From the NCBI GenBank assembly GCA_045568475.1, contig JBJLAY010000047.1:1-54935 (forward strand): 54,935 bases of DNA, read 5' to 3'. The translations under genes were made by a program, and so were the position numbers. Origin of the DNA: Candidatus Poseidoniaceae archaeon (GTDB taxonomy: Archaea > Thermoplasmatota > Poseidoniia > Poseidoniales > Poseidoniaceae). The notes under the pieces are model-generated. The model made no database searches and was not told the origin of the DNA. It worked only from the letters and a program-made list of their open reading frames with translations. This document shows, one piece after another, positions 1 through 32,058 of this stretch. Numbering within the stretch: position 1 is the first letter of the stretch; the number at the start of each line of letters is the position of its first letter.

Positions 1-290
1 CCTTCACTCATCTCATCATCTGCATCTAGACCTAGTTGAGTTGGCAAATCGAAAGCTACCGAGAGACCTTTTTGACCTCTGTCCAATAGCAATTTGAAAC
101 GTTCGTTTGTTTCTTCTGCACTACTGAAGCCAGCATACTGACGCATTGTCCATAATCTTGAACGATACATCGTGTCATGAATACCACGTGTATAGGGTGG
201 TTTTCCAGCAACATCTGGGCCAGCGATTTTGGGGACCTCGATTCCACCAAGTGTCCGCCAGTCTTCCCTACGCTGGCTACTCATTGACAT
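1..290 (-). CDS. Methylmalonyl-CoA mutase family, substrate-binding (large) subunit; 5' part only, runs off window start
   Basis: Not in ORF track. Manual translation from ATG 290: [20 protein letters not shown]...[35 protein letters not shown]...[15 protein letters not shown], the classic MCM N-terminal motifs. Confidence 0.93.
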
Positions 291-363
291 CTCTCCAATC
301 GTTATACTTTCATGCGTGCGTATAAATCCTCATACTAAATTTTAGAAAAACAACATATTAATT

Positions 364-890
364 TCAACAGCAACCGTCGTCATTACACTCTTTAGTTGGC
401 TCTTTGGTAGTCTTTTCTTCATGGACCACTCCACCTACTCCGTGAACATGCCCGTGTAAAATCTCTTCTTGCTCTGCATCTCTGATATCAATAACTTCAA
501 CATTAAATGTCAGTGATTGACCTGCAAGTGCGTGATTGAAATCAACAGTCACTGAATCTTCAGCAACAGCAGTAACCCTAAATGGCCCCATGTCGCTCAT
601 CAGAGTCATACCTACTTCCGGAGTTATTTCACCAAACATTTCTGTAGGAACTTGTTGAACAGCATCTGGATTGTGGTTGCCATATGCATCCTCTGATGAA
701 AGCGTGAATTCTACTTTGTCACCAGTTTTCGCACCCATTAACTCTCTTTCAAAACCGGAATCATCTGTTTGTGTCCTACTAAGAAAACGAGAGGTTCTCT
801 ATCCTTGCTTGAATCAAAAACTTCCCCTGAATCCGGGAGTGTTCCAGTATAATGTACAGTTGCTACTTTGTTATTTGCGATTTCCGACAT
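364..890 (-). pseudogene. slyD: FKBP-type peptidyl-prolyl isomerase (SlyD-like), split by a 1-bp frameshift near 755 (pseudogene or sequence error)
   Basis: ORF 738..938 gives VHYTGTL..GEVFDSS..EPLVFLVGHKQMIP. ORF 364..738 gives DAYG...VDFNHALAGQSLTFNVEV and a His/Cys tail. Adding one G to CCG GTT TTG restores MIPGFERELMGAK. Confidence 0.88.
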
Positions 891-894
891 ATCA

Positions 895-1749
895 TCATCT
901 CTTCGTTGTATATTTTTTAACCATCTTCCTGAATTCATCAGCGATATTTTCTGGAATAATTAGTTCTGCCTCTTTTTGATTAATGAATTCAATGGCTTCA
1001 GACACACCCATTCTTTCTCCCTTAGCCCATATTTGGCCTAGGACATTTGAGCGGTGCTCTTCACTAACTTCATCAACATCCAGTAATTCTCTTGCAGCAT
1101 ACTTGTACTCCAAGTATTTACGACGATCGAGTTTTCTAGATTGAGGTTGTCTACCTCCACCTTTCTTATCACCTGGTCGTCGACGCTTCGGCCTACGATC
1201 AGCCTTTTTCTTTTCAGTTTTGATAGTCTTGAATACATTAGCAGGGTTAGGTTTTACTAAATTACTAACTGGTTCAGCTATGACTTCTTCCTCGACAACT
1301 TCAGTTACAACATCGTCCTCTTTGAGAATTTCAACTTCGGCTACAGGTGTTTCTTCAGTTTTCTTAGCATCCTTAGCATCTTTTGCGAATTGAGCAGTAG
1401 CTGCTGATTTCGCTCTTAATGCGGCCAATCTGTCCTCACGATTTTCAGGTTTCTTAATCGATGTTTTAGGAGCAGGTTTGGGTTGAGGAGATGGCTTATG
1501 GACAGGAGTTGCTTTCGGGGCATCAATTTTTCCAGCAGAATTTTTCTCATCTTCTAATTCCTTACGCTTACGCATTGCCTCCATGGCGGCCTTTTGTTTA
1601 GCAGCTAAATCATTGGTTGGTTTAACCGGCTCAGGAGTGCGTGTACGACTTGGTTGACGCTGCACTTTTTCTTTCCTATCACGTGCTTTTTGACTAGCAT
1701 TTGGTGCAAATGGATTGAATGGCTCATCCTTGCGCCGTCGCCCGTTCAT
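895..1749 (-). CDS. Hypothetical protein; long Lys/Arg/Glu/Pro-rich low-complexity region and a short helical C-terminal domain
   Basis: Long ORF tiling between kae1 and slyD. ATG 1749 (MNGRRRK) preferred over GTG 1791. Confidence 0.75.
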   Translation of the reverse strand: MNGRRRKDEPFNPFAPNASQKARDRKEKVQRQPSRTRTPEPVKPTNDLAAKQKAAMEAMRKRKELEDEKNSAGKIDAPKATPVHKPSPQPKPAPKTSIKKPENREDRLAALRAKSAATAQFAKDAKDAKKTEETPVAEVEILKEDDVVTEVVEEEVIAEPVSNLVKPNPANVFKTIKTEKKKADRRPKRRRPGDKKGGGRQPQSRKLDRRKYLEYKYAARELLDVDEVSEEHRSNVLGQIWAKGERMGVSEAIEFINQKEAELIIPENIADEFRKMVKKYTTKR

Positions 1750-1791
1750 ATTGGTGCGGCTATTCGGCCTCTCATAACCCTTGGCATCCAC

Positions 1792-2805
1792 TCAAGGCCA
1801 CGAAATCGGTGTTTGGTCTGTACGCATTTCCTGATCGATTCCAGAATGTGTTAATGACGTAGTCCTTCCACTTTGAATTTCGAGCCAACCTAATCTTGCA
1901 ATCATGGTTCCATTATCAATGCAATACATCTTCGGCGGGCAGTGGCTACTTGCGTCTCTTTCAGCGCACATGATAGAGGACATTTCCCGTAATCTCTGGT
2001 TGCAAGCTACCCCGCCACCCAATAAAATCTCAGTTTTTCCAGTATGAGCCAGAGCCCTTTCAGCAACTTCTATACAAGCCGCAAATGCATGTTCTTGAAG
2101 ACTCCAACATACCGCTTCAAATGGAGAACCTTGACTTACTAATTTATTGGCAGCACTCATTAGACCAGAGAATGCCAAGTCCATTCCATGCACTGCATAT
2201 GGCAACTCCAGTCCTTCTAACGATGGATTTGGATTTTTTGCAATCCATTCCAATGACTTCTGCTCAATAACTGGCCCTCCCGGGAATGGGATACCATGCT
2301 TTCTTGCAAATTTATCAAGCATATTGCCAATTCCAATATCCAATGTTTCACCGAGAACCCGGTACCTCCCATCCAACCTTGCAATTACTTGTGTATTACC
2401 TCCACTTACGTAGAGGAGTATCGGATCATCACAACCACATTGCTCACGGCCTATCTCAATATGTGCCACACAATGATTAACTCCGATTAATGGAACTCCG
2501 AGGTATTCAGAAATACTCCTAGCGGCTGCAGCACCGGTTCTAAGGCATGCACCCATCCCTGGTCCCTGAGAAAAAGCTACTGCGCCAATTTCACTAGGTG
2601 TGATGTCGTTGTCACTCAATATTTTAGAAAAAAGTTTAGTTGATAAATCTACATGATGGTCTGCAGCTTCTCTGGGATGTATGCCGCCTTCAGTTGGCCG
2701 CAATGTGTCTGAAGCAGATGGTCTTGGCCTTCCATTCGAATCTACTAGGCCGAAAGAAAAGGTATGCGCAGTTGATTCAATACCAAGGATCCATCCACCT
2801 CGCAT
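1792..2805 (-). CDS. kae1: tRNA N6-adenosine threonylcarbamoyltransferase Kae1 (KEOPS), stand-alone
   Basis: LGIESTAH, GGIHPREAADHH, VNHCVAHIE, YVSGGNTQ, GETLDIGIGNMLDKFAR, DNGTMIA, RTDQ motifs. Confidence 0.96.
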   Translation of the reverse strand: MRGGWILGIESTAHTFSFGLVDSNGRPRPSASDTLRPTEGGIHPREAADHHVDLSTKLFSKILSDNDITPSEIGAVAFSQGPGMGACLRTGAAAARSISEYLGVPLIGVNHCVAHIEIGREQCGCDDPILLYVSGGNTQVIARLDGRYRVLGETLDIGIGNMLDKFARKHGIPFPGGPVIEQKSLEWIAKNPNPSLEGLELPYAVHGMDLAFSGLMSAANKLVSQGSPFEAVCWSLQEHAFAACIEVAERALAHTGKTEILLGGGVACNQRLREMSSIMCAERDASSHCPPKMYCIDNGTMIARLGWLEIQSGRTTSLTHSGIDQEMRTDQTPISWP

Positions 2806-26404: not shown

Positions 26405-27292
26405 TCAATCCTCAGAATCTGAAGATTCTTCTTCACTAGTAGAATCTTCTTCTTCATTTGACTCATCCGCGGCATTGGCTTTCATTTCAGCCTTCTTAGC
26501 AGCCTTTTCTCGGCGTGCCTCTTGCCTCTGTTCGAATTTGTCGCCAAAGTCACCTAAACCTTCGAACTTAGCCAACCAGCCGGTCTCACTACCGGTGGAA
26601 ACGTGGTTTACAGAATATGCACTGAATAATAGGTCAAACATACCTTGAGAATAGTCTGAGTTCTTCTTCAGGAAGAAATTCACCACCCAAATAATTATCA
26701 TCAAAAAGCCAACTGCAACCCATGTTTTTCCGTTTGAGGTTGAAAAATTGGATACATTAACTGCGATTAATATGAAGCCAATCAAAAACATAAATCCAAG
26801 GCTGTTATTCAGAACAGCATGTACCGGATTAGGTTTTGATCCACTTGAATTGATATATTTAGTTCGTGAAACGAATTCTCCAATATTCCGGCCTAGCCAT
26901 ATTGGTATTACCAACCAATTCAAAATAATCATCAAAGCAGCTCCTAGGAAGGGATATGTAAAGTCCCCTTCACTAAAGGCGAATATTGACAATGTCCCAA
27001 TTAGTACACCAAAGTTCCATCCGAAATTAATCAACCAACCGATGTATCTAGGCATAGTACCGGATAACTCAAAACCTTCTGGAAGGCCTGTAGGTCGTAT
27101 TTTTTCAGGCTTTTCCTTTCGCGGACTCTTTTTTGCTGCTGCTTTAGGAGTTGCTTTCTTTGCAACTGCTTTCTTAGGAGTTGCTTTCTTTGCAACTGCT
27201 TTTGGAGTTGCTTTCTTTGCAACCGCTTTCTTAGGAGTTGCTTTTGCCGGTTTTGTTTCTTCAAGATTGTCAACTTTGTCAAGTAATCCCAT
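26405..27292 (-). CDS. RDD-like membrane protein with histone-H1-like N-terminal repeats
   Basis: KKAVAKKATP repeats, then about 4 TM segments with GRNIGEFVSRTKYINSSG (RDD-like) and an acidic tail. Confidence 0.7.
   Translation of the reverse strand: MGLLDKVDNLEETKPAKATPKKAVAKKATPKAVAKKATPKKAVAKKATPKAAAKKSPRKEKPEKIRPTGLPEGFELSGTMPRYIGWLINFGWNFGVLIGTLSIFAFSEGDFTYPFLGAALMIILNWLVIPIWLGRNIGEFVSRTKYINSSGSKPNPVHAVLNNSLGFMFLIGFILIAVNVSNFSTSNGKTWVAVGFLMIIIWVVNFFLKKNSDYSQGMFDLLFSAYSVNHVSTGSETGWLAKFEGLGDFGDKFEQRQEARREKAAKKAEMKANAADESNEEEDSTSEEESSDSED
27141..27246. repeat. Coding tandem repeat, 27-30-bp unit, about 3.5 copies
   Basis: TTAGGAGTTGCTTTCTTTGCAACTGCT(TTC) repeated; encodes (K)KAVAKKATP. 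Confidence 0.9.
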
Positions 27293-27302
27293 ATTTTACA
27301 CC

Positions 27303-28445
27303 TCAATTATACATTGCACCTATGGTGCGATATGTTTCGAAATCTTCAGATTTTACGAAATCATCTACTGCTTCATCAGGTAGTTTTCCAAGTAATGTGT
27401 CAACTACACTAAAGAATTCAGCACGCTCATCGTCATCAGCATCAGCTGGCGATGATCCTACGGACTGGTATATTGCGAAGCCATCTGATTTAGAGAATTC
27501 ATCTATTTCAGAAGCAGACAAGTTCGAACCAAGCAAATTGTCAACAATAGATGTGAATTCAAGGAATAGATCTTCTTCTTCATCTTCCTCCTCATATTCT
27601 TCTTCCTCCTCATATTCTTCTTCCTCCTCATATTCTTCTACTTCATCCTCGTCTTCGTCTTCATCGGAATCTGAGCCTAATAATTCATCTAAATCTGCTT
27701 CACCAGCGATTACAGCCTTCAACAGTTTCCTTTCTGACATCAATGTTTCCAGGGATGGTCTTAACTCACGTAAAACTTCACGGTCACCACTTGACTTTGC
27801 CGCTTGGTACTCGGGTTTAATACGTCGAAGTTCATCTTCAACGGTCTTAAGCTGAGCATTTAATTCAACTAAAGTTTCCCCATCCAATGAACCATCATCA
27901 ACCTCGTCTTCTTCGTCTTGATTCAGTAATTGAACAGTAGGAGAATCTCGGACTTCTGCAATTTTGTCATCACGTTCATCTTTACGCATTACAATAATAT
28001 CTCGGTCCAACTCATGACCGAAACGATCAGAATATCTATCAAGAAGACTTCCAATATCTCCTTGACTTATTCGGTCTATGTGTCCATACACCTGTTGTAG
28101 TGGCTTCCCGCTTCTTTTAGCATAAAGTCCGGAATAAGATTCAGAATCATCTTCTGGCTCTACCACTGCTTCAACTTCAGGAGAAGGGCTTGGAGGGAGT
28201 GCTTCGATAGCAGGGAGGGGGGCTGGCTCAGGTGCGGGAATTGCAGTAGGAGTTGGTGCTGCTGGAAGTGGAGCAGGTGCGGGTGCTGCTGGGAGAGGTG
28301 CAGGCGGCAATGGTGCACCAGAAGGTAATGGCATGCCTGGAGGAGGCGGCAATGGTAGTCCGGGCGCAGGTGGCGCTGGCATAGGTGGCAAGCCTGGTGG
28401 AGTGGGTAATTTACTGCCAATCTTCCTCTTCTTACCGAGCCCCAT
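27303..28445 (-). CDS. Hypothetical protein: polyproline N-terminus, coiled coil, acidic repeats
   Basis: Long ORF. GAGGTG SD 6 nt before ATG 28445 (MGLGKKRK). Confidence 0.8.
   Translation of the reverse strand: MGLGKKRKIGSKLPTPPGLPPMPAPPAPGLPLPPPPGMPLPSGAPLPPAPLPAAPAPAPLPAAPTPTAIPAPEPAPLPAIEALPPSPSPEVEAVVEPEDDSESYSGLYAKRSGKPLQQVYGHIDRISQGDIGSLLDRYSDRFGHELDRDIIVMRKDERDDKIAEVRDSPTVQLLNQDEEDEVDDGSLDGETLVELNAQLKTVEDELRRIKPEYQAAKSSGDREVLRELRPSLETLMSERKLLKAVIAGEADLDELLGSDSDEDEDEDEVEEYEEEEEYEEEEEYEEEDEEEDLFLEFTSIVDNLLGSNLSASEIDEFSKSDGFAIYQSVGSSPADADDDERAEFFSVVDTLLGKLPDEAVDDFVKSEDFETYRTIGAMYN
27583..27636. repeat. Perfect 18-bp x3 coding tandem repeat
   Basis: TCTTCCTCCTCATATTCT x3, encoding (EYEEEE)3 on the minus strand. 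Confidence 0.92.
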
Positions 28446-28528
28446 ACTATGCACCTCATACTAGGTGGGTAGCAATCTACCCTTGAACGTTGCCATTGTT
28501 AGAACCATACGTAGTATGGTATTGCTAC

Positions 28529-29719
28529 TTATGGACATAGCCGGGCCCACCCCTTCAAAATCAAGAATGTCGCACCAGCTTCATGGATCTCAAATATATC
28601 ACCAATTGATGCATCTATGACGTTGTTATCGAATCTTGCAATGGCATCATCAACTATCATCTCTACCTTTACTGTTTCTTGCCTTGACAGAGCTATCCCC
28701 TCACTAAGGCAATCGAATGGATTTGAACCATCGGGATCTAAGCGCGAAAGTGGAAATTCAGTGACTCTCATCCCGCTTTTACCGTGTAGTGAACCCGGCC
28801 ACCTTATTTGCCTCCTAGTATCGATAGTCACTACTTCGTCAGTCTCTCCTGCATTACCTAACACAACGCTCGAATCTGCGCGAATTAGATTCTGGAAGAG
28901 CAAAGCATGGTTGTTCAAAGCAGCAAGCCTCCCGTCTAATACGCGGGCTCTACGACTGGGTTCTTGCATCAATTCTGCCAATTTTTCAACACTAGTCTTA
29001 CCACGAAGGCCCTTAAGACCTTCACGTTCCATCATATCTTTGAGTGCGGCAGTAGAGGTTGTCAGTAGTTTAGTATCTCCTTCATGGATGGCATCTAGTT
29101 TCTCAACTACCGATTCAATTCCTAAACCTACACGCTTGGCCCAGCCAGTAGCATTGGGTTTCCTAGAACGCTCCAACAAATCACTTACCTCAACTCCTTC
29201 GCCACGGATATGGCTTACCATTTCTCGGCGTGACTCAGAACCCAAGTGGAAATATGAAGGGTCACGGTAATGTAAATGAAATCCTCTATGGCCGGAAAAT
29301 GTAACTTGGAGGTGTTCTTCTTTGAATCCAAAATCGGGCTCCAAGAAATCATTCCAAAGCGACCAAGCTTGTTCTTGGATTACTTCTATCATTCCGGGAA
29401 AGTCTCTATCTGTTACACCAGGCAGGTGATCTCCGTCTAAGTCAAAAATCAGATCTGCACCAAGCCAGTGCTTGTCATCCATTTTTAGTTCATGTGGCTT
29501 TTTCCAATATGCAGTTGAATAAAAACAAGAGTGTTGAGGTCTTTCACAAATAAATCGACGAACACTATCCATGTCTGAAAATGCTTTGTGGCGCAGAGGC
29601 ATTCCTCCTCCAAATGGAATAAACATCCATTCTCTAGTTCTCAGACGAGGAGGTGTCCATAACTCTGCAGTACGATAGTACTGAGTGAAACGATGTGCGA
29701 ACCTTGCCCAGCCAGAAAT
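28529..29719 (-). CDS. priS: DNA primase small (catalytic) subunit; probable ATT start
   Basis: FYSTAYW, ADLIFDLDGD, FSGHRGFH, DEVVTIDTRRQIRWPGSLHGKS. The frame stays open upstream of ATG 29626 through conserved FTQYYR..LWTPPRL..REW to ATT 29719. Confidence 0.93.
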   Translation of the reverse strand: MSGWARFAHRFTQYYRTAELWTPPRLRTREWMFIPFGGGMPLRHKAFSDMDSVRRFICERPQHSCFYSTAYWKKPHELKMDDKHWLGADLIFDLDGDHLPGVTDRDFPGMIEVIQEQAWSLWNDFLEPDFGFKEEHLQVTFSGHRGFHLHYRDPSYFHLGSESRREMVSHIRGEGVEVSDLLERSRKPNATGWAKRVGLGIESVVEKLDAIHEGDTKLLTTSTAALKDMMEREGLKGLRGKTSVEKLAELMQEPSRRARVLDGRLAALNNHALLFQNLIRADSSVVLGNAGETDEVVTIDTRRQIRWPGSLHGKSGMRVTEFPLSRLDPDGSNPFDCLSEGIALSRQETVKVEMIVDDAIARFDNNVIDASIGDIFEIHEAGATFLILKGWARLCP

Positions 29720-29763: not shown

Positions 29764-29967
29764 TCACTCTTTCCAAAAGCGGGTCTCGCGTTGAATTTCA
29801 ACAGTGGCTGAACCTGCACCGGTTTTTTCAACATAGTGTTCCCAACAAAAATAATGCTTGTCGTGAACCATTGCTTCGCCAAAAGTAAGTCTAGTGCCAC
29901 ATGCTTTACAGCGAGGGCCTAGTTCGCCGTTTGGCGTCTGTGCGAGAGGAATATGTTCGTGTGGCAT
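29764..29967 (-). CDS. 67-aa zinc-finger protein (LIM/treble-clef-like CxxC...CxxH)
   Basis: RCKACGTRLTFGEAMVHDKHYFCWEHY; ATG 29967. Confidence 0.75.
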   Translation of the reverse strand: MPHEHIPLAQTPNGELGPRCKACGTRLTFGEAMVHDKHYFCWEHYVEKTGAGSATVEIQRETRFWKE

Positions 29968-30016
29968 AGTACTTACCAGTTGATGCGTAGAGGATGAAGT
30001 CTTTGAATGTGGCGTA

Positions 30017-30496
30017 TTACCAAGAGATTTCATTAGCATCATCACACAATGCTAGCAAATCCAATGCTACTTCACAGGATTCTGCAACTTCTGGTAAATC
30101 ATCATTGAGAAAACTTTGGAGAATTGGTCTTGCCCGTCGGTCACCAATAGCACCTAATGCCTCTGCAGCCTCGTGTCTAACCATGACGTGTTCTGTTGGG
30201 TCACTGAGAGTCTGAATTAGTTTTGGAACAGCCAATGGGTCTTGCATTTGACCAAGAACATAAGCCAATTCGTGCTTCAATAATGCACTTTTAGAAACAA
30301 AAGCATCACATAGTGCCTGAACTGCATCAGGTGTTCTATTGTTACGTAAGCTGAATACAACGCGCATTCTGTGGAACATCTTTTCGTTCTCATCAAGCAA
30401 TATTGATCGTAGAATACTGACATTTGTTTCCTCAGATGGAGGTGCAGGATCTACTGAGCCATATTCGGATATCCCGGGAATACGGCCTTCGCTCAT
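30017..30496 (-). CDS. HEAT-repeat protein, half-length deoxyhypusine hydroxylase (DOHH)-like
   Basis: SALLKHELAYVLGQMQD, MVRHEAAEALGAIGD, EVAESCEVALD: two His-Glu motifs as in one DOHH half. Confidence 0.85.
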   Translation of the reverse strand: MSEGRIPGISEYGSVDPAPPSEETNVSILRSILLDENEKMFHRMRVVFSLRNNRTPDAVQALCDAFVSKSALLKHELAYVLGQMQDPLAVPKLIQTLSDPTEHVMVRHEAAEALGAIGDRRARPILQSFLNDDLPEVAESCEVALDLLALCDDANEISW

Positions 30497-30501
30497 TGTA
30501 A

Positions 30502-31389
30502 TCACTCCGAGGGAGCACCGATGAAATGCAGACCATCAACATCGAAATTAGGATCTATTAATCCGATTTTTTGGCCTTCTTTCAAGAACAATCTAATTGA
30601 TTCTCTACCTTCAGGCTTGTAATCTATAGTTCTGTCATTAACATACATTGTAACAAATTCTCGATTGGTTTCGTCATCAATTCCACGGCCCCATTTCTTT
30701 GCAAATTCTAATGCGACATCGGGGTTAGCGATAGAATGCTCGATACTCATTTTTGTGTAAAGTGTAACATCTTCCATCACTTCCTGCCCGAGATCTCTTC
30801 GGACTACATTTCCTCCGAGCGGCATTGGTAAACCTCCTGTCTTGTCATTCCACCAGACACCTAGATTCAATAATACATCCAAATCATGATCAACATAAGT
30901 CAATTGGCCTTCATGAATAATTAGGCCGGAAACATATGTTCCATCTAGGATACGAGGAATTATCTCATCGAATGGTACCACTTCATACACCAAGTCTCCC
31001 CAACATAGCCGTATACCCATGTATGCACTAGTTTTGAGGCCGGGTACTGCTATTGGGTTTGACTTTGCAACCTCTTCTGTCACTCCGCTTTTTGCAACAA
31101 CCATCGGCCCGTACCCTTCACCCATAGATGCACCACAATTCATCAGAGCGTAATCAGCAGCAATATCAGGGAATGCGTGAATACTAACTGCTGAAACTTC
31201 CAATTCTTTCCTCATTGCGCGGTGGTTTAGGGTCTCAATATCCTGCAACTCGTGTACAAAATTATACCCAGGTGTTTTGAATGCATTTGTAGTCATTGCA
31301 TGGAACATAAAGGCATCATCGGGGTCAGGAGAATGTCCAATTCTGACAATCATGTTTCCGTCTTCGTCTCTTGGTAATTTCATATCCAT
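30502..31389 (-). CDS. mqnD: 1,4-dihydroxy-6-naphthoate synthase
   Basis: GHSPDPDDAFMF, DIETLN, SMGEGYGP, IIHEGQLTY, PMPLGGN, MYVN. Confidence 0.93.
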   Translation of the reverse strand: MDMKLPRDEDGNMIVRIGHSPDPDDAFMFHAMTTNAFKTPGYNFVHELQDIETLNHRAMRKELEVSAVSIHAFPDIAADYALMNCGASMGEGYGPMVVAKSGVTEEVAKSNPIAVPGLKTSAYMGIRLCWGDLVYEVVPFDEIIPRILDGTYVSGLIIHEGQLTYVDHDLDVLLNLGVWWNDKTGGLPMPLGGNVVRRDLGQEVMEDVTLYTKMSIEHSIANPDVALEFAKKWGRGIDDETNREFVTMYVNDRTIDYKPEGRESIRLFLKEGQKIGLIDPNFDVDGLHFIGAPSE

Positions 31390-31398
31390 AGTAGCACC

Positions 31399-32058
31399 TC
31401 AATGGCATGCTTTGCCGTATTTCTTTAGCCTCCAATAATTGTAAGGCCATGGAGTGATAAAACCTACGAAAAGCATGATTGGAATGACCCACCAAGTCAA
31501 CATGGCTCCTCCAGTCATCAAATAATCCGTAATATTCATCGCCGATTCCATGGCAATCATGGAGATTAATGACATCCCTATTGCTACTTTGAAACCTTCG
31601 TATAACCCCAGTTGCTTGGATAAAATAACAGTTTCAAGTGCGATAGAGGTCAATAAACCGTTAATCATTGCTAAGATCATGATGCTCATCGTGCTCCACC
31701 CCGAATCTGTGAAAACGAATTGGAAGGCGGCAATAGTTCCAAAGTCTCCTATTGAACACCCGATTAGACACCACATGGTGTTGTAAGCAGATTGTTTCCA
31801 AACGCTAATATCGCTCCAATTAAAATCTAATCCCAAACCATCCACAGTATAGCCAGAACTCCTAATTGCCTGCGACAAAGTTTTCCTATCTATTCCAATT
31901 GAAGATATAGTTGCAGAGGATTCTTCAAGGGATACAGATGCTGAAGATACTCCATTGATTGAAATTAAGGCGTCATGAACTGTCTTTACACAAGCTTCGC
32001 AAGTCATGCCACCTACGTTGAGTGTAATGGTATTAGATTCCAAGACACTGCCGTCCAT
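31399..32058 (-). CDS. Heavy-metal-associated (HMA) domain fused to DUF4396 membrane domain
   Basis: GMTCEAC, then TMWCLIGCSIGD, SMIAME, GFITPWPYNYW. Confidence 0.88.
   Translation of the reverse strand: MDGSVLESNTITLNVGGMTCEACVKTVHDALISINGVSSASVSLEESSATISSIGIDRKTLSQAIRSSGYTVDGLGLDFNWSDISVWKQSAYNTMWCLIGCSIGDFGTIAAFQFVFTDSGWSTMSIMILAMINGLLTSIALETVILSKQLGLYEGFKVAIGMSLISMIAMESAMNITDYLMTGGAMLTWWVIPIMLFVGFITPWPYNYWRLKKYGKACH

What the first reader, a model, noticed from the sequence alone, without database searches (positions are those of the whole stretch)
30017..30496. Half-length deoxyhypusine hydroxylase (DOHH) homologue: candidate archaeal aIF5A hypusination enzyme
Seen: a 159-aa HEAT protein with LLDENEKMFHRMRVVFSLRN, SALLKHELAYVLGQMQD, MVRHEAAEALGAIGD and EVAESCEVALD. 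Known: eukaryotic DOHH/Lia1 is a di-iron monooxygenase made of two similar 4-HEAT halves, each with two His-Glu iron/substrate motifs. From memory those halves read SALLKHELAYCLGQMQD, MVRHEAGEALGAIGD and ESCEVALD, far closer than generic PBS-lyase HEAT proteins. Archaea have deoxyhypusine synthase, but as far as I know no archaeal DOHH has been characterised. Inference: this is one DOHH half that homodimerises to rebuild the di-iron site and hydroxylates aIF5A in an aerobic archaeon. It could be the pre-duplication ancestor or a transferred half. It is the last gene of an apparent operon (HMA-DUF4396, mqnD, this gene; gaps of 9 and 5 bp).
Basis: partly seen in the sequence, partly recalled or inferred. 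Interest (0 to 1): 0.88.

Follow-up and report, generated by a model that had tools for sequence, protein, structure and literature searches.

The report
Half-size archaeal deoxyhypusine hydroxylase homologue
A marine archaeon carries a conserved gene for exactly one half of the enzyme that eukaryotes use to finish the hypusine modification of translation factor 5A, which probably works as a pair and could be the archaeal version of an enzyme the papers read here say is missing from archaea.

Summary
Window 30017-30496 (minus strand) encodes a 159-aa protein that matches human deoxyhypusine hydroxylase (DOHH, PDB 4D4Z) at E=6.4e-65. It aligns to both halves of that enzyme.

It has four HEAT repeats. 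Its two His-Glu motifs, H75-E76 and H108-E109, are invariant in 43 of 43 archaeal homologues.

The window comes from a Poseidoniales (Marine Group II) genome. The half-size gene was found in 118 of 151 genomes of that order and in other Thermoplasmatota families. It was always a single half. The only longer relatives found are eukaryotic DOHHs of about 300 aa.

A symmetric homodimer is predicted: score 0.91 against 0.01 for the best control, with both histidines at the interface. This pass may reflect likeness to 4D4Z.

Deoxyhypusine synthase, an aIF5A with the target lysine loop, and a haem-copper oxidase are all encoded in the genome. In the phylum sample, 73 of 76 genomes with the gene also encode the oxidase.

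In trees the archaeal halves are never nested inside the eukaryotic N- or C-half groups. The root is unresolved.

Enzyme activity is untested. Annotation pipelines already call the protein DOHH, but no paper found here describes it.

The parts
30017..30496 (-). Coding sequence of the 159-aa single-half DOHH homologue (ATG at 30496-30494, stop at 30019-30017)
   Evidence: ORF. Matches 4d4z at E=6.4e-65. AF2 model has pLDDT 94.1 and 8 helices, i.e. 4 HEAT hairpins. Foldseek to 4d4z gives TMq 0.87-0.89, rmsd 1.3 A. Coordinates checked.
30437..30478 (-). N-terminal arm (residues 7-20) holding the invariant Asp16-Pro17 of the DPAP motif. It matches the linker between the two halves of eukaryotic DOHH
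   Evidence: D16 and P17 are invariant in 43 of 43 sequences. The arm is non-helical in the model. Residues 7-20 lie in the predicted dimer interface. DP[AS]P occurs in the linker of 71 of 90 eukaryotic representatives and in 0 of 90 N-terminal leads.
30269..30274 (-). First His-Glu motif (H75-E76). It aligns with human H56-E57 and H207-E208
   Evidence: Alignment (chain index = residue number + 5). Invariant. Residue roles are from passages of PMC9117371. Codons checked.
30170..30175 (-). Second His-Glu motif (H108-E109). It aligns with human H89-E90 and H240-E241
   Evidence: H108 is in the predicted interface.
30502..31389 (-). MqnD-like gene (Pfam VitK2_biosynth) directly upstream. The linkage is specific to the order Poseidoniales
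   Evidence: Pfam 205 bits. Directly upstream on the same strand in 91 of 93 Poseidoniales loci and in 0 of 19 other Thermoplasmatota loci. Fused in frame in one genome.
31399..32058 (-). HMA + DUF4396 membrane protein, the first gene of the tight cluster
   Evidence: Pfam and NCBIfam CopZ-like N-terminus. Found at this position in only part of the Poseidoniales loci.
29764..30045 (-). Small conserved zinc-ribbon-like ORF between the DOHH half and PriS. The conserved core starts at the Met encoded at 29967
   Evidence: ORF. tblastn hits in 91 loci. Weak LIM hit at E=0.0064, below the cut-off. It lies next to PriS, not the DOHH half, in L035.
28529..29626 (-). Archaeal DNA primase small subunit PriS, downstream on the same strand
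   Evidence: Pfam and NCBIfam. Conserved downstream in Poseidoniaceae loci.

Best explanation
The gene encodes a true, conserved, single-half homologue of eukaryotic deoxyhypusine hydroxylase: four HEAT repeats, two His-Glu motifs and an N-terminal DPAP arm. It most likely forms a two-fold symmetric homodimer. Each subunit would supply two His and one Glu for one iron, and each arm would lie on the partner the way the inter-half linker does in the eukaryotic enzyme. The dimer would rebuild the four-His-Glu di-iron site and use O2 to hydroxylate the deoxyhypusine that DHS places on the conserved lysine of aIF5A, giving hypusine. Shown here: homology, half length, conservation, the fold, the presence of the substrate pathway, and restriction to oxidase-encoding lineages. 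Predicted only: the dimer. Inferred only: iron binding, the substrate and the reaction.
For: Sequence: 4d4z scores E=6.4e-65. Both halves align at about 50% identity, including the linker stretch. The fold matches 4d4z with TMq 0.87-0.89 and rmsd 1.3 A, against 0.67-0.69 for designed HEAT proteins. H75-E76, H108-E109 and G82 align with the residues that PMC9117371 lists as iron ligands and deoxyhypusine-binding residues, and they are invariant in 43 of 43 archaeal homologues. The gene is single-copy in this genome and in nearly all relatives, so a four-motif site needs two copies of the same chain. The homodimer model scores a median ipSAE of 0.91 against 0.01 for the best of 3 controls, with partner pLDDT 94 and runs agreeing in at least 71% of contacts. 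In the tool's calibration, 20 of 30 proteins solved as pairs of one chain reached the mark, and 1 of 23 solved as single chains did. The interface holds residues 7-20, 75, 108, 112 and 139-147. The gene is under constraint: it was found in 118 of 151 genomes of the order and in 10 families of the phylum sample. Synonymous sites are saturated in 8 of 9 pairs, and the one computable pair gives dN/dS 0.10. The substrate pathway is present: DHS at 308 bits and an aIF5A with the Lys-bearing PGKHG loop. Oxygen context: a haem-copper oxidase is encoded. In the phylum sample, 73 of 76 genomes with the half-DOHH have COX1, and only 3 of 178 genomes without COX1 have it (my hand count; relatives are not independent, but all 10 families with the gene also have COX1).
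Against: No activity, iron content or hypusine measurement exists for these organisms. The dimer pass may come from the model's memory of the solved human enzyme, whose two halves pack in the same way (caveat printed). DHS and aIF5A are not adjacent to the gene in any of the 112 fetched loci that hold the half-DOHH, so no operon links them. Within Poseidoniales the gene is coupled to an MqnD-like quinone gene and is fused to it in one genome. Many oxidase-encoding Thermoplasmatota families have no copy in the genomes searched, and 33 of 151 Poseidoniales genomes have none, so the function is dispensable. The papers read here name no DOHH homologue in the archaea reported to contain hypusine, such as Sulfolobus. 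At best this protein explains hypusination in one part of the Archaea. An aIF5A C-terminal domain was not detected with PF01287; only the N-domain model hit.
Confidence: 0.62

Rival explanations
1. The protein has the same fold and di-iron chemistry but a different substrate. The homodimer would hydroxylate something other than aIF5A-deoxyhypusine, for example a free polyamine such as homospermidine, another modified lysine, or an intermediate linked to the neighbouring MqnD-like quinone enzyme.
For: The tight coupling to the MqnD-like gene is conserved in 91 of 93 Poseidoniales loci, and one genome has an in-frame MqnD::half-DOHH ORF of 463 aa. The genome also has a second DHS-like enzyme, fused to an AdoMet_dc domain and next to an arginase-family gene. 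That arrangement looks like a homospermidine route. No DHS or aIF5A lies next to the gene.
Against: The MqnD linkage was not found in any of 19 loci from other Thermoplasmatota families. The fusion was seen in one MAG only, and its closest relative, P0386, is a free-standing 159-aa protein. From my own recall, no step of the futalosine pathway needs an O2-dependent hydroxylase. The residues listed as binding the deoxyhypusine side chain (E57/E208, E90/E241, G214) are all kept and invariant. Identity to eukaryotic halves (42-47%) is as high as eukaryotic halves show among themselves, which argues for an unchanged substrate.
Confidence: 0.2
2. The protein is a non-catalytic HEAT-repeat adaptor. 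It has kept the DOHH fold but acts only as a binding or scaffolding protein.
For: Pfam and NCBIfam see only generic HEAT/PBS-lyase repeats. Short HEAT proteins without catalysis are common, and many designed and natural ones appear as weaker hits.
Against: Generic HEAT proteins, including the 8-repeat ones in the same phylum, lack the His-Glu pairs. Here both pairs and their flanking residues are invariant in 43 of 43 sequences. The gene is almost confined to oxidase-encoding genomes, which a plain adaptor would not explain.
Confidence: 0.07
3. Rival on origin only (compatible with DOHH function). The archaeal gene is not a pre-duplication form. It descends from the linker plus C-terminal half of an early eukaryotic DOHH, was acquired by an ancestor of marine Thermoplasmatota, and then re-adapted to work as a homodimer.
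For: The N-terminal DPAP arm matches the eukaryotic inter-half linker that precedes the C-half (71 of 90 eukaryotic representatives) and is found at no eukaryotic N-terminus (0 of 90). Two of the three diagnostic columns and the C-terminal ESCEVALD block are C-half-like. Mean identity to C-halves (43-47%) is a little higher than to N-halves (38-45%). Distribution within the phylum is patchy.
Against: The archaeal halves are never nested inside the C-half clan, which is one clan at 99/95 support. Holding all archaeal rows together is not rejected and gives the best likelihood found. They are closer to N-halves (38-45%) than C-halves are to N-halves (37%), and one diagnostic column is N-like, so they sit between the two halves. 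The gene tree follows the family groupings (Poseidoniales, f29, the deeper families) as vertical descent would. A tandem duplication of an arm-plus-half gene explains the linker just as well.
Confidence: 0.3

Closest known systems
Eukaryotic deoxyhypusine hydroxylase (human DOHH, PDB 4D4Z; yeast Lia1; EC 1.14.99.29)
   Same: HEAT-hairpin fold (TMq 0.87-0.89, rmsd 1.3 A). About 50% identity to each half. His-Glu motifs at the same positions, the conserved Gly of the substrate pocket, and the DPAP segment. The upstream pathway, DHS and a/eIF5A, is present.
   Different: One chain has four HEAT repeats and two His-Glu motifs, not eight and four. The active site can therefore form only between two identical chains. 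The DPAP segment is a free N-terminal arm rather than a covalent linker. The host is an archaeon, where the papers read here say no DOHH is known.
Generic PBS-lyase-type HEAT proteins (Pfam HEAT_PBS/HEAT_2; designed alphaRep proteins; MTH187, PDB 1TE4; 8-repeat HEAT proteins of family f16 in the same phylum)
   Same: Same repeat type and Pfam families. Moderate sequence and fold matches.
   Different: They lack both His-Glu pairs and the DPAP arm. They also score far lower (142 bits or less against 221; TMq 0.67-0.69 against 0.87-0.89).
Other routes to the hydroxylated factor: the bifunctional DHS of Trichomonas vaginalis and the EF-P hydroxylase YfcM/EpmC of bacteria (both as described in passages of PMC6105217)
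   Same: They finish the modification of the same conserved loop of the IF5A/EF-P family by hydroxylation.
   Different: They are unrelated proteins. I made no sequence comparison with them here. They show only that the step can be solved in other ways, which is what has been proposed for archaea that lack a DOHH homologue.

Membership tests
Deoxyhypusine hydroxylase (DOHH/Lia1) | Specific sequence similarity to DOHH, well above that to generic HEAT proteins | tested here: met
   4d4z scores E=6.4e-65 and 221 bits, and both halves are hit. The next hit is 142 bits. Eukaryotic DOHHs are the only longer relatives, at 45-57% identity.
Deoxyhypusine hydroxylase (DOHH/Lia1) | Eight HEAT repeats in one chain, arranged as two symmetric four-repeat halves | tested here: not met
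   One chain has 8 helices, i.e. 4 hairpins. All 32 archaeal loci examined hold one half only. No two-half archaeal form was found. The eight-repeat assembly exists only as a predicted homodimer.
Deoxyhypusine hydroxylase (DOHH/Lia1) | [quoted passage not shown] | tested here: inconclusive
   There are two motifs per chain at the homologous positions, invariant in 43 of 43 sequences. Four would exist only in a dimer, which is predicted but not shown.
Deoxyhypusine hydroxylase (DOHH/Lia1) | Residues that bind the deoxyhypusine side chain (E57, E90, E208, E241 and the conserved Gly, as listed in PMC9117371) | tested here: met
   E76, E109 and G82 align with them and are invariant. The residue list is from passages read.
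Deoxyhypusine hydroxylase (DOHH/Lia1) | The substrate is available: DHS, and IF5A with the target lysine | tested here: met
   DHS at 308 bits on contig C43. aIF5A N-domain at 50.7 bits on C42, with the PGKHG loop.
Deoxyhypusine hydroxylase (DOHH/Lia1) | Binds two Fe and hydroxylates deoxyhypusine with O2 | not testable with these tools
   There is only indirect support: 73 of 76 genomes with the gene encode COX1, and 3 of 178 genomes without COX1 have the gene.
Pfam HEAT_PBS / HEAT_2 repeat proteins | Score above the Pfam gathering cut-off | tested here: met
   HEAT_PBS 63.4 bits (cut-off 20.9) and HEAT_2 61.3 bits (cut-off 27.7). This is true but says nothing about function.

The most novel reading that the evidence does not exclude
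Aerobic marine Thermoplasmatota (Marine Group II and relatives) make true hypusine with a homodimeric, single-half DOHH, and this protein is a living example of the form that existed before the duplication. On this reading, eukaryotic DOHH arose when an archaeal 'arm + four-HEAT' gene was duplicated in tandem and fused. The second copy's arm became the inter-half linker and the first copy's arm was lost. It would also mean that a protein treated as a eukaryotic invention has an archaeal origin outside the lineages usually considered.
Probability: 0.3. Interest if true: 0.85.

Novelty: new variant of a known kind. Interest (0 to 1): 0.72.

Why it matters
Hypusine was reported in some archaea decades ago, yet the papers read here state that no archaeal DOHH orthologue has been identified and that the archaeal pathway is unsolved (PMC5178350, PMC6105217 and PMC3306375; passages read).

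This gene is a concrete and easily testable candidate for that enzyme in one of the most abundant archaeal groups of the surface ocean.

It also gives a natural experiment on how an internally duplicated metalloenzyme arises. A 159-aa chain that must pair with itself is exactly the intermediate expected before a duplication and fusion.

It offers a minimal system as well, half the size of the human enzyme, for studying the unusually stable peroxo-diiron centre of DOHH.

Two limits apply. Annotation pipelines (JGI names, automatic cluster names) already label these proteins as deoxyhypusine monooxygenase, so the similarity itself is not new. What is new is the half-size architecture, its distribution and its implications. 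The papers read here name no DOHH homologue in Sulfolobus and the other archaea reported to contain hypusine, so this protein would not account for them.

Tried and rejected
1. Rooting the half-DOHH tree with generic HEAT units failed. The four outgroup rows had end branches of 2.7-9 changes per column, they did not stay together, and the position of the archaeal clades changed between runs. I draw no conclusion about the root.

2. AU test on the 107-row set. It did not finish in two 288-s runs. I replaced it with a 58-row set.

3. The free search on the 58-row set split the archaeal rows along the path between the N- and C-halves. The constrained tree with the archaeal rows together was 4.0 log-likelihood units better, with p-AU 0.64. 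I therefore dropped the idea that the N- and C-halves derive from two different archaeal lineages.

4. The third protein search used the alignment of divergent halves (A2) to reach other phyla. It was swamped by two-domain eukaryotic DOHHs because the length window reached 305 aa. It gave no information on other archaeal phyla.

5. The genome-collection scan found 405 loci but lists only the best 80, all Poseidoniales. The atlas search lists 164-170-aa HEAT clusters from Bathyarchaeota and Nitrososphaerota at score 0.96. I could not obtain their sequences, so whether half-DOHHs exist outside Thermoplasmatota, including in Asgard archaea, is untested.

6. Weak hits in family f16 (E about 1e-9) are generic 8-repeat HEAT proteins without His-Glu motifs. 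I removed them from the counts (79 becomes 76).

7. PF01287 (the aIF5A C-domain) found nothing in this 67%-complete genome. PF21485 found the gene.

8. Neither DHS nor aIF5A lies within the fetched loci. No neighbour is conserved across the non-Poseidoniales loci.

9. Long open frames upstream of several high-GC homologues are not fusions. Only L035 is a real fused frame.

10. Expression. One RNA-library run (X20) holds a 164-nt contig over 30339-30498 with 10 differences. It comes from a relative, and DNA carry-over cannot be excluded. The rest of the gene has no cover in that run. I do not count this as evidence of transcription.

11. dN/dS. Synonymous sites were saturated in 8 of 9 pairs, so only one ratio could be given.

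12. Papers. PMC1324997 and PMC2572820 are not held. The original cloning paper and the evolutionary review may discuss prokaryotic relatives, and I could not check them. No paper was found that links DOHH or deoxyhypusine with Marine Group II, Poseidoniales, Thermoplasmatota or Asgard as a hydroxylase (searches; passages read in 67, 68). Supplementary files were not requested. Gene tables in the supplements of Marine Group II genome papers may list this annotation.

Full report
**The observation**

The window holds a minus-strand ORF at 30017..30505. Orthologues start at the same Met.

Pfam and NCBIfam see only generic HEAT/PBS-lyase repeats. A search of all solved structures puts human deoxyhypusine hydroxylase first, far ahead of the rest: 4d4z at E=6.4e-65 and 221 bits, against 142 bits for the best designed HEAT protein.

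The protein aligns twice to the human chain:
- to the N-terminal half (100 bits);
- to the linker plus C-terminal half (119.5 bits).

The stated 9-bp and 5-bp gene gaps are correct. A metagenome contig from another run covers 29968-30564 without a single difference, so the short gene is not an assembly artefact.

**Anatomy**

An AlphaFold2 model built on 43 homologues has mean pLDDT 94.1. It shows eight helices, i.e. four HEAT hairpins, behind a non-helical N-terminal arm of about 25 residues. It superposes on 4d4z with TMq 0.87-0.89 and rmsd 1.3 A. Designed HEAT proteins reach only 0.67-0.69.

H75-E76 and H108-E109 align with human H56-E57/H207-E208 and H89-E90/H240-E241 (the chain index is residue number plus 5). 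[quoted passage not shown] Six of the residues anchor the di-iron centre, and the glutamates and a glycine bind the deoxyhypusine side chain (PMC9117371, passages; also PMC3306375, passages).

In an alignment of 43 archaeal homologues, the following are invariant: both His-Glu pairs, G82, Q83, the MVRHE block, and D16-P17 of the arm. Generic HEAT proteins lack these pairs, including 8-repeat ones from the same phylum.

**Whose gene it is, and how widespread**

The genome is a 1.50-Mb, 67%-complete assembly. The closest named records are Candidatus Poseidoniales/Poseidoniaceae, i.e. Marine Group II archaea.

The half-size gene was found in 118 of 151 genomes sampled from the order: family f1 67/74, f2 2/2, f3 48/74. 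Some genera have none.

In a phylum sample it was found in 79 of 301 genomes. Three of those are generic HEAT hits, which leaves 76 genomes in 10 families.

In all 32 archaeal loci examined there is one half per gene. Nearly all genomes have one copy. The only relatives of 280 aa or more are eukaryotic DOHHs of about 300 aa. A search of 1.84 billion cluster representatives likewise returned two-stretch eukaryotic proteins and giant HEAT proteins.

Protein divergence is moderate. Synonymous sites are saturated in 8 of 9 pairs, and the one computable dN/dS is 0.10.

**How it most likely works**

One chain has only half of the ligands, and there is only one gene. The simplest mechanism is therefore a symmetric homodimer that rebuilds the four-motif site.

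The complex prediction supports this:
- median ipSAE 0.91 against 0.01 for the best of 3 controls;
- partner pLDDT 94;
- at least 71% of contacts shared between runs.

In the tool's calibration, 20 of 30 proteins solved as pairs of one chain reached the mark, and 1 of 23 solved as single chains did. The calibration used no riding ligand and not my own alignment.

The interface contains the arm (residues 7-20), H75, H108, E112 and the ESCEVALD helix. The tool warns that such a pass can come from likeness to a solved structure. Here the human enzyme's two halves pack in the same way, so the result shows compatibility, not binding.

I infer, but have not shown, that each subunit holds one iron through H75, H108 and E109, and that O2 is activated between the two irons as in the human enzyme.

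**Substrate and context**

The genome encodes:
- a canonical DHS (308 bits);
- an aIF5A whose N-domain carries the conserved Lys loop;
- a haem-copper oxidase subunit I (475 bits).

Across the phylum sample, 73 of the 76 genomes with the half-DOHH also have COX1. The three misses are MAGs that are incomplete (G076 90%, G019 92%) or highly fragmented (G207, 810 contigs). Only 3 of the 178 genomes without COX1 have the half-DOHH (hand count). Related genomes are not independent, but all 10 families that have the gene also have COX1. The large families with no COX1 match over the cut-off (f5, f6, f16, f19) have no half-DOHH. This fits an O2-dependent enzyme.

Many oxidase-bearing families lack the gene (f4, f22, f23, f35 and others), so it is not essential.

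**The mqnD linkage**

In Poseidoniales the order is MqnD-like gene, half-DOHH, small zinc-ribbon-like ORF, PriS. This order is almost invariant: MqnD lies directly upstream in 91 of 93 loci. The other two loci have no upstream DNA, and some loci are the same genome fetched twice.

One genome (G015) has the two genes fused in frame as a 463-aa ORF. Its nearest relative is a free 159-aa protein.

In 19 loci from other families, MqnD was not found within about 3 kb, and no other neighbour is shared. I therefore read the linkage as local gene order, not as a clue to function. It keeps a rival alive, namely a different substrate.

**Origin**

On 133 shared columns, mean identities are:

| Comparison | Identity |
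|---|---|
| Archaeal halves vs eukaryotic N-halves | 38-45% |
| Archaeal halves vs eukaryotic C-halves | 43-47% |
| Eukaryotic N-halves vs C-halves | 37% |
| Eukaryotic N-halves among themselves | 41% |
| Eukaryotic C-halves among themselves | 47% |

The archaeal protein therefore sits between the two eukaryotic halves.

In a tree without outgroups, the N-halves form one clan (98/95) and the C-halves another (99/95). Holding the 22 archaeal rows together gives the best likelihood found (4.0 units higher, p-AU 0.64). The result is a three-clan star whose root cannot be placed, because generic HEAT outgroups were far too long-branched.

The archaeal halves are not nested within the crown diversity of either eukaryotic half.

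The DPAP arm is shared with the eukaryotic inter-half linker: 71 of 90 representatives have it there, and 0 of 90 have it at the N-terminus. This fits two scenarios equally well:
- a tandem duplication of an arm-plus-half gene;
- transfer of a linker-plus-C-half fragment.

I put the pre-duplication reading at about 0.3-0.4 and the transferred-half reading at about 0.3.

**What is known**

Three papers state that no DOHH orthologue is known in archaea, or that DOHH is absent from archaea: PMC5178350, PMC6105217 and PMC3306375 (passages).

Seven full-text searches found no paper that connects DOHH with Marine Group II, Poseidoniales, Thermoplasmatota or Asgard archaea. The original cloning paper and an evolutionary review are not held, and supplements were closed.

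JGI names several of these proteins deoxyhypusine monooxygenase, while NCBI calls them HEAT repeat proteins. The protein atlas gives its clusters automatic DOHH names. The similarity has thus been picked up by pipelines, but as far as I could search it has not been described or tested.

**Verdict**

Homology, half-size architecture, conservation and context are shown. The dimer is predicted. The chemistry and the substrate are inferred.

I file this as a new variant of a known kind: a single-half, presumably homodimeric, archaeal DOHH. Confidence in the functional reading is 0.62 and interest is 0.72.

Noticed in passing
L035:2962-4350 (minus strand; genome G015, contig C2): An uninterrupted 463-aa frame joins an MqnD-like domain (Pfam VitK2_biosynth, residues 27-282) to a half-DOHH (HEAT, residues 362-445). 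It has no stop and no Met at the junction. It was seen in one MAG only and could be a real fusion or a sequencing error.
   Followed up: partly
L003 (G000 contig C48:3510-7385), ORFs 198..1088(+) and 1045..2388(+): A second DHS-like protein is fused to an N-terminal AdoMet_dc (pyruvoyl decarboxylase) domain (447 aa). It overlaps the end of an arginase-family gene. This resembles the SpeDA/SpeY homospermidine clusters described in PMC10407285. Spermidine synthase (PF01564) was not found in this 67%-complete genome, so the aminobutyl donor for DHS may be homospermidine or an agmatine route.
   Followed up: partly
window 29764-30045 (minus strand): A small ORF with a CxxC...CWEH pattern is conserved (core about 67 aa from the Met encoded at 29967). 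It lies between the half-DOHH and PriS and gives tblastn hits in 91 loci. Its only Pfam hit is a sub-threshold LIM match (E=0.0064). In L035 it sits beside PriS rather than the half-DOHH, so it may be a primase-associated zinc-ribbon protein.
   Followed up: partly
window 27303-28454 and 26405-27292 (minus strand): Two low-complexity proteins have no Pfam family. One is 383 aa with a Pro/Ala-rich N-terminus and long Glu/Asp runs. The other is 295 aa with repeated KKA(T/V)PK units, predicted membrane segments and an acidic tail.
   Followed up: no
G070:C122:4344-4778: The half-DOHH of this genome reads through two stop codons (1 TAG, 1 TAA) at only 43% identity. It is apparently a decaying copy in a 91%-complete genome of the same family. 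Together with the genera that lack the gene, this suggests ongoing loss.
   Followed up: no
L072 and L094: Two contigs carry the Poseidoniales gene order MqnD, half-DOHH, PriS but are filed in MAGs labelled Rhodobiaceae bacterium and Salinimicrobium sp. These are probably binning errors in the public records.
   Followed up: no
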